In this document: piece by piece, positions 45,904-49,580 of the stretch
Layout: each line of letters starts with the position of its first letter
Position numbering within the stretch: position 1 is the stretch's first letter
Virus record (IMG/VR): IMGVR_UViG_3300048502_000077
Coordinates: 2,665 to 66,664 of that record
Length of the DNA stretch: 64,000 nt
Strand: one strand, 5' to 3'
From: a virus
Lineage: Duplodnaviria > Caudoviricetes
The notes under the pieces: model-generated
Databases searched by the model: none
What the model saw: only the letters and a program-made list of their open reading frames with translations
What the model was told of the DNA's origin: nothing
Program-made: the position numbers and the translations under genes

Positions 45904-47346
45904 ATGAAAATCAATTCCCTGCGTATCACGGGTTTCAAGCGCGTGATTGAAGTTCACATCGTTCCTGGTAGTCGCATAGTCAGGATCACCGGACCCAATG
46001 AGGCCGGCAAGAGCAGCATCTTGGATGCTATTTGGGTGGCAATCCGCGGTGCAGCAGTGCGCCGTCGAAGCCATTAACACCAGAGGCCAACGAGGCCATC
46101 ATTGAGGTTGGATCTCGGCGAGATCATTGTCCGTCGCGAATTCCACAAAACAGAGTCCGCCGACGAAACAACGCTGCTGCGTGTCGAGTCGCGCAAGGGC
46201 GCACGCTTTCCGTCTCCGCAAAAGATGCTGGACAAACTGTTCAGCAAACTGACCTTCGATCCGCTCGAATTCGCCCGCATGGAACCGGCAAAGCAATTCA
46301 CAGAATTGCAGAAATTCGTGCCGGGCTTTGACTTCGCGGACAACGCCGGCCGACGCCTGGCGCTGTTTGAAAAGCGCACCGAGTGGAACCGGATGGAGAA
46401 ACAGGAGCGCGGTGCTGCGGCCGTCATTGACTTGCATCCGGATACACCGGCCGCGCCCGTGGACGAAGAATCGCTGATCGAAGAACTGAACAATGCCGGT
46501 AAGTCCAATGCCACATTGGCGACGCGGCGAGAGCGGCGTACTGTCGCAGAAGAGTCCCTGAAACGATTGACCGCTGAAGCCGAGGTCCTTCGCGGCGGAA
46601 TTGATCAGCAAGTCGCAGCCGCCAGTCATCGCCTGGATAGGCGCGCCGATGATCTGCGCATGCGTATCAAGGAATTCGAGGACGCGTTGGCGCAGGCAAA
46701 GATAGAACTGGCACAACACCAGGAAAGCGCAGCCACAGAATTGCAGGCCGTGCGCAGCCAACTGGAACAACACGTCAAGACTAGAGAGGCGGACCGTGAC
46801 GAACTGAAGTCCAAGATCGACAGCGCCGAACCGCTGCCTGCCGAAATCGATGTGGACGAATTGGCGGCCAAACTGGATCGCGCGCGTACCGCCAATGATC
46901 TGTATCGCCGCAAGGAACGGCGTGATACGCATATCAAGCATGCTGAGGCCGCCAAGTCCGAAGCCGATGCGCTGACTGCTGCAATAGAACTGGTTGACAA
47001 GGAAAAGCGCGAGGCCATTACCGCAGCCGCCATGCCGGTCAAGGGACTGGGCTTCGGGGCCAATGAGATCCTCTACAATGACCTACCGTTCGCCCAAGCG
47101 AGCGATGCTGTGCGACTGCGCGTGTCGGTAGCCATTGCCGCATCACAAGATCCGGAATTGAGGATATTGCGAATCAAGGAAGGGTCGCTGCTCGATAAGA
47201 ACGGCGTCAAGTTACTCGATGAGATTTGCGAGGAACACGATATGCAGGCATGGCTGGAAGTGGTCATGCAAGGCGAAGATGACCCCATGGCATGGGTGAT
47301 CGAGGCCGGGACGGTTAAGCATGGGCCGGCTGGGGGCGTGCAGTAA
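45904..47346 (+). CDS. SMC/SbcC-like ATPase with a coiled coil; two apparent sequencing frameshifts near 46050-46100
   Basis: MKI..L.I.GFKR.....I.P......ITGPNEAGKSSILDAI (Walker A); long coiled coil; signature-like LPF.QAS...LR.SVAIA; IKEGSLLD. Confidence 0.75.
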
Positions 47347-48287
47347 TGCCAATCGAATTCAAACCCGCCGTCCGCGGTAATGAACATCTGATCATCGGTC
47401 TGATTGGGGGAACCGGATCCGGCAAGACCTTTACAGGATTGGAACTGGCGGCAGGACTAACGCCGACCGGCAAGAAGTTCGCCATGATCGACACGGAAGC
47501 CGGGCGTGGGCTGCACTACGCAGACTATCAGCAGTTTGCTAACCGATATGATCATGCGGACTTGCGGGCACCGTTCCGGCCGGATACGTACCGCGAGGCG
47601 ATCTTTGCGGCAGAGGATGCGGGCTATCCGGTGATCATGGTCGATAGCTGCTCCCACGAGTGGGCTGGTGCCGGCGGCGTGATCGATTGGCAGGAGGAAG
47701 AACTTGACCGGATGGCCGGTGACGATTGGAAGAAACGCGAGTCGTGCAAAATGGCCGCATGGATTAAACCGAAGATGGCGCATAAGCAGATGGTACAGAA
47801 ACTGCTGCAGTTACGCGCGCATCTGATCCTGTGTTTCCGCGCGGAGGAAAAGGTCGACATCGTTAAAGAGGACGGTAAAACCAAGATCGTGCCAGCACAA
47901 CGACGCACGGGTCTAAATGGCTGGGTGCCGATCTGCGAGAAGCATCTGCCGTTCGAACTGACGTGCAGTTTCCTCTTTACCGAGGAAGCTCCTGGCTTTC
48001 CCAAGCCGATCAAACTGGAAGGCCAGCATAGGAAGTTTTTTCCGCTGGATCAGCCGGTAGATCGCGAGTCCGGACGGCTACTGGCAGAATGGGCCGCGAA
48101 CGCGCCAAAAATCAACGCGCCATCGCAGGACCAAGTCGCCTCCCTAATCAAACTCTATGAAACCTGCGATGCATCAGGCTTCGCCAAACTCGAGACCGAC
48201 CGCAAAGCCTGGTGGTCGATGATCAAGCCGCAGCAGGCGGTGCTTAAAACGGTGTCGGATCAGGCGAGAGCCCGACTCGGACTATAA
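47346..48287 (+). CDS. AAA_24/Sak4-like ATPase (recombination)
   Basis: IGLIGGTGSGKTFT.L; IDTE.GR...YAD; PF.P..Y..AI..AE..G..VI.VDS.SHEW.G.GG. Confidence 0.8.
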   Translation: MPIEFKPAVRGNEHLIIGLIGGTGSGKTFTGLELAAGLTPTGKKFAMIDTEAGRGLHYADYQQFANRYDHADLRAPFRPDTYREAIFAAEDAGYPVIMVDSCSHEWAGAGGVIDWQEEELDRMAGDDWKKRESCKMAAWIKPKMAHKQMVQKLLQLRAHLILCFRAEEKVDIVKEDGKTKIVPAQRRTGLNGWVPICEKHLPFELTCSFLFTEEAPGFPKPIKLEGQHRKFFPLDQPVDRESGRLLAEWAANAPKINAPSQDQVASLIKLYETCDASGFAKLETDRKAWWSMIKPQQAVLKTVSDQARARLGL

Positions 48288-48305: not shown

Positions 48306-48968
48306 ATGCGAACCTATCAAGTAATAATTACCGGCAAAACACCGCTGCTAATGCATCACGACAATATTGACTGGGCAGACTTCATGGACGCATGGAAATC
48401 TGATCCAGCCAATAAACAGGGAAGCAAAGCCGGTGATGATAGGGCGCCAGCATGGAGATGGCTGGGATGTGTGTACCACGATGACAAGATAGTTTCGATA
48501 CCGCAGACCAATGTTATGAAATCGCTTATGGAGGGCGGGGCGATGGTTCCGGTTCCTGGAGGTAAAAACGGTAAGACTTTCAAATCACAGACACAATCCG
48601 GAATGATGAGTGTGGAACCGTTCTGGAGTCTGCGGGTTAACGGCGCAACCATTAAATGGTCGGACATTGAGAGCCTTAAGGATTTGAAAGAATTTTCTAA
48701 GCATAAGGATGCGGCAAGAGCGCTCGGATTTGAACTGCTCGTGAAGCGGGCCGCCGTGGGATCCGCGAAGCACATTCGCGTGCGCCCTCAGTTCGCTGCC
48801 GGCTGGCAAGCAATTGGGTCTATTGCGGTGTGGGACGAACAAATAACTGACAGAGCCCTTGCTGATATTTTTGCGTATGCAGGACAGTACAAAGGGATCG
48901 GTGATTGGCGTCCGGGCGCGCCGAAGAAGCCCGGCCCGTATGGGACGTTTGAAGCGAAGATCGTGTGA
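48306..48968 (+). CDS. Stand-alone RAMP/Cas7(Csm3)-like protein, candidate guide-RNA-binding effector (Vipr-like)
   Basis: GGGAG RBS. RRM beta1 motif YQVIITGKTPLLMH, alpha1 motif VSIPQTNVMKSLMEG, and C-terminal G-rich loop GQYKGIGDWRPGAPKKPGPYGTFE parallel Csm3 TPLHIG / IPGSSLKG / LGG..SRGYG. Judged by eye. Confidence 0.7.
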   Translation: MRTYQVIITGKTPLLMHHDNIDWADFMDAWKSDPANKQGSKAGDDRAPAWRWLGCVYHDDKIVSIPQTNVMKSLMEGGAMVPVPGGKNGKTFKSQTQSGMMSVEPFWSLRVNGATIKWSDIESLKDLKEFSKHKDAARALGFELLVKRAAVGSAKHIRVRPQFAAGWQAIGSIAVWDEQITDRALADIFAYAGQYKGIGDWRPGAPKKPGPYGTFEAKIV

Positions 48969-48975
48969 TCAGATG

Positions 48976-49055
48976 GGCCGGGCTGGGCACGGAGAGGCAC
49001 GGCCGGGCATGGCGAGGCATGGCAGGGCGCGGCCGGGCATGGTGTGGCAAGGGGT
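48976..49055 (+). repeat. Tandem pentamer array GG(Y)NN x15 (plus a terminal GGGGT), putative guide ncRNA
   Basis: GGCCG GGCTG GGCAC GGAGA GGCAC GGCCG GGCAT GGCGA GGCAT GGCAG GGCGC GGCCG GGCAT GGTGT GGCAA GGGGT. Starts 7 nt after the stop of 48306-48968. Confidence 0.9.
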
Positions 49056-49076
49056 CTATGACCAAAGGATGTTAAG

Positions 49077-49580
49077 ATGACTGAAACAAAACATTTCCCG
49101 TGGGATGAAGGCATTCCGACGAAACCAGATGTGGATGCGCTGTTGAAGCAATGGCCGCCGGAAACAATCAAGGCAGGCGAATGGAAGATTACCGATGAGC
49201 AGGCCAAGCCATTGATCGGAAATCCAAATCGAATTCGTTATAGGACCGTGTACGCCGCGTGGATTGCGCGTTTAAAGGCAGATCATTCCATTGTTTTGTA
49301 TCGGTCCAAACAGTTGGGATTTTACTGCCCGACGCCGGAGGAGATCTTCTCTCGCACGCATCCAACACTACAGAGCGCTGGCAGAAAGATTGGCGCCCAG
49401 CTCAAAAACGTAGGTCTGGCGAAGCCAGAGACAGAAATCGGCAAGCAGACGCAGGATCATCATGGCAGATTGCTGCACGCGCAAAAACGAGAACTGAAAA
49501 AGGCGAGAATGAATTTATTGCCGCCAACTTCAGTTGCCGAGACTCCTCGTATATCGCCACCATCTAAGGCGAATCGGTGA
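49077..49580 (+). CDS. Accessory protein of the RAMP-array locus (winged-helix-like plus helical tail)
   Basis: GIPTKPDVD.L...W.....G...I.......IG.....RY.TV..AW..RL......V......GF. The true start could be ATG 49058 if there is a 1-nt error. Confidence 0.6.
   Translation: MTETKHFPWDEGIPTKPDVDALLKQWPPETIKAGEWKITDEQAKPLIGNPNRIRYRTVYAAWIARLKADHSIVLYRSKQLGFYCPTPEEIFSRTHPTLQSAGRKIGAQLKNVGLAKPETEIGKQTQDHHGRLLHAQKRELKKARMNLLPPTSVAETPRISPPSKANR

What the first reader, a model, noticed from the sequence alone, without database searches (positions are those of the whole stretch)
48976..49063. The pentamer array: constant GGY scaffold, variable NN that can be decoded into a predicted gapped target
Seen: the NN series is CG TG AC GA AC CG AT GA AT AG GC CG AT GT AA. 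Fourteen of 15 units start with GGY and one with GGA. A small hairpin, GGTC-TAT-GACC (49053-49063), closes the 3' end. Inference: if each NN pairs and one target base is skipped (the rule I recall for VIPR), the target is CGnTGnACnGAnACnCGnATnGAnATnAGnGCnCGnATnGTnAA or its reverse complement TTnACnATnCGnGCnCTnATnTCnATnCGnGTnTCnGTnCAnCG. A skipped third base would make recognition blind to codon wobble, so synonymous escape would fail. I saw no obvious self-match but could not search exhaustively. Caveat: alternate units are mostly GGCAY, a secondary 10-nt period that lowers the information content.
Basis: partly seen in the sequence, partly recalled or inferred. Interest (0 to 1): 0.85.

Follow-up and report, generated by a model that had tools for sequence, protein, structure and literature searches.

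The report
Phage VIPR guide RNA, target unknown
The pentamer array is a genuine guide-RNA gene of a VIPR system (a recently described phage-borne, CRISPR-like DNA-silencing system). It sits between its Vipr protein gene and a conserved accessory gene in an uncultivated peat phage, and I could not find the DNA it is aimed at.

Summary
Window 48976-49050 holds 15 in-phase GGYNN units (14 GGY, one GGA), followed by the hairpin GGTC-TAT-GACC at 49053-49063. It is the only such array in the window.

The ORF 7 nt upstream (48306-48968) is a Vipr protein. A family profile matches the solved SUSP1 Vipr (PDB 36pp) at E 1.2e-16, and the model has a Cas7-type RAMP fold. The 167-aa ORF downstream is syntenic in at least 56 of about 90 related loci, so it is a candidate vap.

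In 314 distinct arrays beside related vipr genes, all on the vipr strand, GG is 97-98% conserved, Y is 99.4% conserved and NN is near uniform. The 3' hairpin covaries.

A phage with 99.5% identical flanks carries an array with five substitutions (four in NN) and a 15-nt in-phase indel. Its array is two copies of a 9-unit block.

Two guides from this clade have real in-frame targets that skip the wobble base. One matches at least 120 viral contigs in AAA_24 ATPase genes. This supports the published 1-nt-skip rule for this clade.

The window's own target was not found, and hit counts did not exceed shuffled controls.

Verdict: a new member of a known kind (VIPR, preprints of 2026).

The parts
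48306..48968 (+). vipr gene: 220-aa Vipr protein (minimal RAMP, Cas7-like), P0001
   Evidence: phmmer against PDB sequences gives 36pp_D 'SUSP1 Vipr protein' at E 5.9e-5. A 48-sequence family profile gives E 1.2e-16 and covers both the N- and C-terminal parts. The AF2 model has pLDDT 94. The top Foldseek PDB hits are all Cas7-type RAMPs (type VII Cas7, Csm3, Cmr4) at E about 3e-5. The conserved C-terminal G-rich loop includes G193, G197, D200-W-R-P203, G210 and G213. It also matches phrog_4652, function unknown.
48976..49045 (+). vrRNA guide region: 14 GGYNN units. NN = CG TG AC GA AC CG AT GA AT AG GC CG AT GT. Unit 4 (48991-48995) is GGAGA, a non-canonical scaffold.
   Evidence: Read directly and called by script. 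The same architecture occurs on the vipr strand in nearly all of about 90 related loci and never on the opposite strand. Across 314 arrays the scaffold is G 98%, G 97%, Y 99.4%, and the NN positions are near uniform.
49046..49064 (+). vrRNA 3' handle: conserved last unit GGCAA, then GG, then hairpin GGTC (49053-49056) / loop TAT / GACC (49060-49063), then A
   Evidence: GGCAA is the last unit in 133 of 314 arrays, and the tail starts with GGG in 178 of 314. A hairpin of at least 4 bp starts within 5 nt of the array end in 190 of 294 distinct tails, against 91 in shuffles (maximum 109), with 81 distinct stem sequences. Covariation score is 0.314 against 0.184, exceeded by 0 of 500 shuffles, and all four pairs change on both sides.
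49077..49580 (+). candidate vap (vipr-accessory protein), 167 aa, P0002; RBS AAGGA at 49065-49069
   Evidence: tblastn homologs lie directly 3' of vipr and its arrays in at least 56 related loci. The other neighbours (AAA_24, phrog_1499, the 74-aa and 124-aa ORFs) are not syntenic. It has no Pfam, PHROG or PADLOC family. The AF2 model (pLDDT 89.6) shows an N-terminal winged-helix-like part and a C-terminal helical hairpin. Fold matches are weak: winged-helix regulators at E > 0.1 and generic helical hairpins, including PadR/AphA.
47346..48287 (+). Context: AAA_24 ATPase gene on the same strand, ending 18 nt before vipr (probable same operon)
   Evidence: Pfam PF13479 at E 8e-12 and phrog_1366. 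No promoter or terminator signal above shuffles separates it from vipr and the array. Genes of this Pfam family are the natural target of related guides.

Best explanation
Window 48976-49064 encodes a single VIPR guide RNA (vrRNA) of a complete, minimal VIPR locus, arranged as vipr - vrRNA - candidate vap. The locus sits in the replication/recombination module of a 66.7-kb uncultivated phage from peat.

Shown here:
- The upstream protein is a Vipr RAMP.
- The array has the defining GGY/NN architecture.
- The array, its strand, its position beside vipr, a short covarying 3' hairpin and the downstream 167-aa gene are conserved across a large viral clade.
- The NN bases turn over even between phages whose flanks are 99.5% identical.
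- Two other natural guides of this clade match conserved phage coding sequences in frame, with the skipped base on the wobble position.

Inferred from the published SUSP1 and P. fulva work:
- The array is transcribed with vipr, since no promoter of its own is visible.
- Vipr protomers polymerise along it, one per repeat. They clamp each GGY and expose each NN.
- The filament binds double-stranded DNA that reads NN-x-NN-x... and silences transcription there, probably in a competing phage, prophage or satellite.
- The hairpin acts as the 3' handle or cap.
- The accessory protein enhances the effect by binding DNA.

The predicted target is CGnTGnACnGAnACnCGnATnGAnAT, possibly continuing nAGnGCnCGnATnGT, on either strand. 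It has not been found.
For: - Vipr homology: (PDB 36pp SUSP1 Vipr, profile E 1.2e-16).
- RAMP fold.
- Array anatomy.
- Family-wide architecture: about 90 loci and 314 distinct arrays, all on the vipr strand, with the scaffold conserved and NN uniform.
- Handle hairpin covariation.
- Accessory gene synteny.
- Viral context (large terminase, portal, tail and primase genes; single 66,664-bp virus record).
- Strain-level divergence concentrated in the array: 5 substitutions plus a 15-nt in-phase indel in 75 nt, against 21 substitutions and no indel in 3864 flanking nt, P 7e-5. A second peat study holds the variant array.
- No self target: the best match in the phage's own genome is 20 of 30, reached by 21% of shuffles.
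- The rule works in this clade. The guide at L059:2764-2808 gives at least 120 IMG/VR contigs against 1-6 for equally specified control patterns. All 80 sites read lie on the peptide WLTHLQHT of AAA_24 genes, with the skip on the variable wobble base.
- An independent guide, L061:2190-2244, hits 18 of 20 positions on the peptide ITGTRWNGW at five sites.
- Only skip 1 gives guides at or above 0.9 identity with none among shuffles.
- Published definition and mechanism: 10.64898/2026.04.26.720920, 10.64898/2026.04.26.720927, 10.64898/2026.10.15.759431.
Against: - No target was found for this guide, and hit counts did not exceed controls.
- One unit has GGA instead of GGY. A occurs at that position in 0.4% of family units, and the published work says GGY perturbation abolishes silencing.
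- Units 10-15 look like a decayed duplicate of units 1-9, so part of the RNA may be non-functional.
- The 3' tail is a 4-bp hairpin, not the roughly 40-nt pseudoknot tail of the characterised SUSP1 clade.
- Homology of the accessory gene to the published vap1-6 could not be tested.
Confidence: 0.9

Rival explanations
1. The array is a neutral, slippage-prone minisatellite in an intergenic spacer, with no RNA function.
For: In-phase block duplications and deletions do occur. L100 has two copies of a 9-unit block and the window has lost three units. Internal repeats of at least 4 units occur in 9 arrays against 0.8 expected. Assemblies break inside the array. No target was found.
Against: A neutral repeat would not keep GG at 97-98% and Y at 99.4% while NN stays near uniform across 314 arrays, in loci whose Vipr proteins are only 45-80% identical. 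It would not always lie on the vipr strand beside vipr, nor always end in a covarying hairpin. About 89% of arrays have no internal repeat beyond chance. Related guides have real targets.
Confidence: 0.03
2. The array acts at the DNA or mRNA level as a cis element. It could be a binding-site array for the downstream winged-helix-like protein, or a G-rich 3'-UTR/leader structure tuning translation of the downstream gene, rather than a trans-acting guide.
For: It lies in a 108-nt gap inside an apparent operon, with the RBS of the next gene 1 nt after the hairpin. No promoter or terminator of its own was seen. The downstream protein has a weak winged-helix-like fold.
Against: Many relatives carry several arrays upstream of vipr or after the accessory gene, so there is no fixed relation to one RBS. 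Variable NN is not what a binding-site array for one protein would show. The free RNA is not more structured than shuffles, z -1.3. Published structures show Vipr itself clamping GGY in RNA (10.64898/2026.04.26.720927).
Confidence: 0.05
3. It is a true vrRNA by descent but currently a decaying or orphaned guide. The scaffold mutation and the degenerate second block would mean it no longer directs silencing of anything.
For: The GGA unit is at 48991-48995, where relative L100 has GGC. Units 10-15 are a mutated, shortened copy of units 1-9. No target was found in IMG/VR, JGI metagenomes or 807 genomes.
Against: The same sequence, including GGA, is found in three assemblies, although one of those samples may be the source of the window. 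Units 1-3 and 5-14 are canonical. The vipr and accessory genes are intact and conserved. Failure to find a target in incomplete databases with exact-match scans is weak evidence.
Confidence: 0.2

Closest known systems
Type II VIPR of Escherichia phage SUSP1 (vipr, vap1, four vrRNAs; PDB 36pp)
   Same: Both have a homologous Vipr protein (profile E 1.2e-16) and GGYNN repeats with variable NN, 9-16 units in SUSP1 and 15 here. Both are phage-borne two-gene loci. Neither targets itself. Wobble-skipping in-frame targets are seen in this clade's relatives.
   Different: Only about 30% identity over the C-terminal 60 residues, and tblastn against 50,697 GenBank phages does not reach SUSP1. There is a single vrRNA, placed between vipr and the accessory gene. 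The 3' tail is a 4-bp/3-nt-loop hairpin rather than a roughly 40-nt pseudoknot. The accessory protein has no detectable sequence family. Which of the seven published types this is could not be determined, because the supplementary tables are not held.
Solo (orphan) vrRNAs of F5 satellites and VIPR-null SUSP1-like phages
   Same: The same GGYNN-plus-tail RNA architecture.
   Different: This one is not solo. An intact vipr gene ends 7 nt upstream.
Class 1 CRISPR crRNA with a Cas7 backbone (types III and VII)
   Same: The protein fold matches: the top structural neighbours are Cas7, Csm3 and Cmr4. Both use a guide RNA bound by a helical RAMP filament with periodic unpaired positions and a structured handle.
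   Different: There is no repeat-spacer array, no cas1/cas2 and no other cas gene in the window. The guide is read 2 of every 5 RNA bases against 2 of every 3 DNA bases. PADLOC models do not hit it.

Membership tests
VIPR system | Vipr protein: a minimal RAMP (RRM core, glycine-rich loop, thumb) homologous to described Viprs | tested here: met
   PDB 36pp SUSP1 Vipr at E 5.9e-5 with the single sequence and 1.2e-16 with the family profile. Cas7-type RAMP fold. Conserved C-terminal G-rich loop.
VIPR system | vrRNA gene: at least 4 (typically 9-16) tandem GGYNN units beside vipr, with GGY conserved and NN hypervariable among relatives | tested here: met
   15 units, 14 of them GGY. In 314 related arrays G is 98%, G 97%, Y 99.4% and NN near uniform; all lie on the vipr strand.
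VIPR system | Invariable, structured 3' tail after the repeat tract | tested here: met
   A conserved GGCAA-GG(G)-hairpin with covarying stems. It is much shorter than the SUSP1 pseudoknot tail, so this is a variant form.
VIPR system | Accessory vap gene in the locus | tested here: inconclusive
   The 167-aa ORF is syntenic in at least 56 loci and has a weak winged-helix-like fold. Sequences of the published vap1-6 were not available for comparison.
VIPR system | Viral or proviral location | tested here: met
   A single 66,664-bp virus record with large terminase, portal, tail and primase genes. Relatives come mostly from IMG/VR.
VIPR system | 1-nt-skip recognition of a natural DNA target, without self-targeting | tested here: inconclusive
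   For this guide there is no self target and no target found elsewhere. For two related guides of the clade the feature is met.
VIPR system | vrRNA is expressed and co-purifies with Vipr | not testable with these tools
   Needs small-RNA sequencing of an expressed locus and a Vipr pull-down; see Tried and rejected and the decisive next steps.
CRISPR-Cas | Repeat-spacer array (period about 60-79 nt) with cas genes | tested here: not met
   No repeat of that period in the window. No Rfam match. No PADLOC hit for the RAMP protein.

The most novel reading that the evidence does not exclude
The window and its relative with 99.5% identical flanks may catch vrRNA guide evolution in the act. VIPR has no adaptation module. 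New guide content would arise by in-phase duplication of a block of GGYNN units (2 x 9 units in L100), followed by NN point changes and in-phase deletions in one copy (units 10-15 of the window). That would be a primitive, acquisition-free route to new specificities. Alternatively, the doubled guide may read a tandem 27-bp repeat in the target.
Probability: 0.3. Interest if true: 0.55.

Novelty: new member of a known kind. Interest (0 to 1): 0.4.

Why it matters
VIPR was described only in 2026 and has been characterised in two enterobacterial/Pseudomonas clades. This locus does four things.
- It extends VIPR to a large, uncultivated clade: 562 protein clusters at 50% identity, with essentially no representative among GenBank phages.
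- It shows a minimal vipr-vrRNA-accessory layout with a very short hairpin handle.
- It gives natural evidence that guides diverge faster than their flanks, by NN substitution and in-phase block slippage.
- Through related guides, it points to AAA_24 replication-module ATPase genes, which sit next to vipr in these phages, as a recurrent target in conflict between phages.

None of this overturns the published picture. It is a solid annotation with useful leads.

Tried and rejected
Target searches for the window's guide, all negative or at chance level:
- Own 66.7-kb genome, skips 0-3: best 20 of 30 at skip 1, reached by 21% of shuffles. The perfect skip-3 hit is the array itself.
- IMG/VR exact scans of units 1-8, 7-14 and 2-9: 1, 5 and 4 hits. 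None extends beyond the 8 units. Shuffled-order and reversed controls gave 6 and 4 hits.
- JGI metagenome scan of the 9-unit core (M/W degenerate ends): 28 scattered hits. Four lie on the motif RWTETRMEN of xanthine-dehydrogenase/CoxL-like genes and two in another family. The rest lie in short frames and none extends. I judged these chance plus family redundancy.
- Units 1-14 with up to 3 mismatches in 5 MAGs carrying related loci, 401 genomes of one phylum and 401 of one class: 0 hits. This means not found in those searched, not absent.
- About 100 related loci and 120 AAA_24-bearing phage loci: chance level.
- 314 related guides against this phage: none above shuffles.

Other dead ends:
- Genome contigs with the single protein found nothing, and alignment A1 was too diverse to search with.
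- No RNA holder is listed among sequencing runs, so expression is untested.
- No Rfam family matched.
- No promoter or terminator signal above shuffles.
- The accessory protein has no Pfam, PHROG, PADLOC or PDB sequence match. Its VIA matches are generic helical hairpins.
- Supplementary tables of the discovery paper are not held, so the VIPR type (I-VII) and vap class could not be assigned.
- A coding reading of the array was rejected. It lies between a stop codon and an RBS, and unit counts among relatives vary by steps of 5 nt, which do not keep a reading frame.
- I did not run complex prediction, because no binding claim is made.

Full report
**1. Observation**

Window 48976-49050 is a run of fifteen 5-nt units in perfect phase. 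Fourteen units begin with GGY and one (48991-48995) with GGA.

The run starts 7 nt after the stop codon of a 220-aa ORF (48306-48968). It is followed by GG, the hairpin GGTC-TAT-GACC (49053-49063), an AAGGA ribosome-binding site and the ATG of a 167-aa ORF (49077-49580).

A caller run on both strands of the whole window finds no other array; the runners-up have 4-5 conforming units.

**2. What VIPR is (from papers)**

Viral Interference Programmable Repeat systems were described in 2026 (10.64898/2026.04.26.720920; structures in 10.64898/2026.04.26.720927; biology in 10.64898/2026.10.15.759431). Their published features are:
- a small ancestral RAMP protein, Vipr;
- usually one accessory gene, vap;
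- vrRNAs made of 9-16 YNNGG/GGYNN repeats, followed by an invariable structured 3' tail.

Vipr protomers polymerise on the RNA, sequester each GGY and present each NN. The complex binds double-stranded DNA, reading two bases and skipping one, and silences transcription. The skipped base usually falls on codon wobble positions. Most systems are in phages and prophages, and some encode only one vrRNA.

**3. The flanking protein is a Vipr**

- P0001 (48306-48968) matches the solved SUSP1 Vipr protein (PDB 36pp) at E 5.9e-5 on its own.
- A profile of 48 family members matches it at E 1.2e-16, across both the N- and C-terminal parts.
- The AlphaFold model is confident, pLDDT 94.
- Its best structural neighbours in the PDB are all Cas7-type RAMP subunits: type VII Cas7, Csm3 and Cmr4.
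- The family is large. It has more than 1200 close homologs and 562 clusters at 50% identity.
- It is almost absent from cultivated phages. One distant hit appears among 50,697 GenBank records.

**4. Genomic context**

The genome held for the window is a single 66,664-bp virus record. It carries tail, baseplate, helicase, exonuclease VIII, primase, large terminase and portal genes.

The locus lies in the replication/recombination module, directly after an AAA_24 ATPase gene. No promoter or terminator signal of its own was seen.

The phage occurs in peat metagenomes from three studies.

**5. Relatives**

I fetched about 90 related loci from IMG/VR and from MAGs.
- Nearly all carry GGYNN arrays upstream and/or downstream of vipr, always on the vipr strand and never on the other strand.
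- Over 314 distinct arrays the five unit positions are G 98%, G 97%, C/T 85/14%, and then two near-uniform positions.
- There is no family-wide lag-2 periodicity, so the GGCAY alternation in the window is a property of this guide.
- The last unit is GGCAA in 133 of 314 arrays, and the tail begins with GGG in 178.
- A hairpin of at least 4 bp starts within 5 nt of the array end in 190 of 294 distinct tails. Shuffles give 91 on average (maximum 109). There are 81 different stem sequences.
- In the window's register all four pairs change on both sides. The covariation score is 0.314 against 0.184 for shuffles (0 of 500 reach it), and the slide control peaks at zero.
- This short hairpin takes the place of the roughly 40-nt pseudoknot tail of the SUSP1 clade.

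**6. The downstream gene**

Homologs of the 167-aa ORF follow vipr and its arrays in at least 56 loci, while the other neighbours are not syntenic. Its model (pLDDT 89.6) has a winged-helix-like N-terminal part and a long helical hairpin.

Fold matches are weak. Foldseek gives winged-helix regulators at E > 0.1, and VIA gives generic helical hairpins that include PadR/AphA. I treat it as a candidate vap. Published vaps of several types are predicted DNA binders, but I could not compare sequences.

**7. Close relatives and guide turnover**

Two other assemblies carry the identical array, though one of those samples may be the source of the window.

L100 comes from another peat sample. Its flanks differ by only 21 substitutions and no indel over 3864 nt. 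Within the array it differs by five substitutions (four at NN positions, one turning GGC into the window's GGA) and a 15-nt in-phase indel, P 7e-5.

L100's array is two copies of the 9-unit block AG TG AC GA AC CG AT GA AT/AA. The window keeps block 1 and a shortened, mutated block 2.

A run from a different study holds the L100-type array, and its contigs break inside the array.

Family-wide, internal repeats of at least 4 units occur in 9 arrays against 0.8 expected. About 89% of arrays show no internal repeat beyond chance.

So guides change by NN substitution and also by in-phase slippage. This is not the pattern of a neutral minisatellite.

**8. Targets**

The window's guide has no self target.

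Exact 8-unit scans of IMG/VR gave 1, 5 and 4 hits that do not extend beyond the 8 units. Shuffled and reversed controls gave 6 and 4.

A 9-unit scan of JGI metagenomes gave 28 scattered hits, consistent with chance. Scans allowing 3 mismatches in 807 genomes gave none. The target therefore remains unknown.

Testing all related guides against the loci in hand gave a better result. A guide shared by L059 and L027 matched an AAA_24 gene in another VIPR-bearing phage, L052.
Equally specified control patterns returned 1-6.
- All 80 sites I read lie in frame on the peptide WLTHLQHT. The skipped bases fall on wobble positions, which vary among sites.

An independent guide from L061 matches 18 of 20 positions on the peptide ITGTRWNGW at five sites, again in frame. 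Only the 1-nt-skip rule yields guides at or above 0.9 identity with none among shuffled guides.

This supports the published rule for the clade to which the window's Vipr belongs.

**9. Verdict**

The finding is a genuine vrRNA gene in a complete minimal VIPR locus, a new member of a known kind.

What is specific to this locus:
- a single vrRNA sits between vipr and the accessory gene;
- the handle is a very short hairpin;
- one scaffold unit is mutated (GGA);
- the guide shows a duplicated and then decaying block structure;
- the target is unidentified.

The mechanism is inferred from the characterised systems and from the natural targets of related guides. Expression and binding are untested.

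Noticed in passing
L059:2764-2808, L027:2885-2934; targets e.g. L052:1280-1305 and L145-L264: A vrRNA shared by two related phages matches at least 120 IMG/VR contigs. The matches lie in frame on the conserved peptide WLTHLQHT of AAA_24 ATPase genes, with the skip on the wobble base. The AAA_24 gene sits just upstream of vipr in these phages, so silencing it could also be polar on the rival's VIPR operon.
   Followed up: partly
L061:2190-2244; targets in L156, L169, L230, L233, L249: An independent 10-unit guide matches 18 of 20 positions on the conserved peptide AITGTRWNGWVFFGLK of a phage gene, in frame. The gene family was not identified.
   Followed up: partly
L084, L086-L093, L082, L058, L081: More distant members of the clade have very different array layouts. 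Some have up to 13 short arrays separated by only 7 nt (possibly the 'staggered' type). Others have single arrays of 37-40 units.
   Followed up: no
window 48991-48995: The only non-GGY unit (GGAGA) is GGCGA in the close relative L100. A at that position occurs in 0.4% of 314 family arrays. Whether it weakens the filament is unknown.
   Followed up: partly
window 47346-48287: The AAA_24 protein upstream of vipr has a weak PADLOC hit to mad8 (E 4.9e-4).
   Followed up: no
GenBank OQ417975.1 19924-20496 (Mycobacterium phage prophiBWHA-1, gene 43): This is the only hit of this Vipr clade among 50,697 GenBank phage records (28% identity, E 2e-6). It may be an unannotated VIPR in a Mycobacterium abscessus prophage.
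   Followed up: no
L108, L111, L128, L133 (metagenome contigs): The window's 9-unit core matches, in frame, the motif GRPVRWTETRMEN of xanthine-dehydrogenase/CoxL-like genes in 4 of 28 metagenome hits. I judged this chance, given the size of that family.
   Followed up: partly
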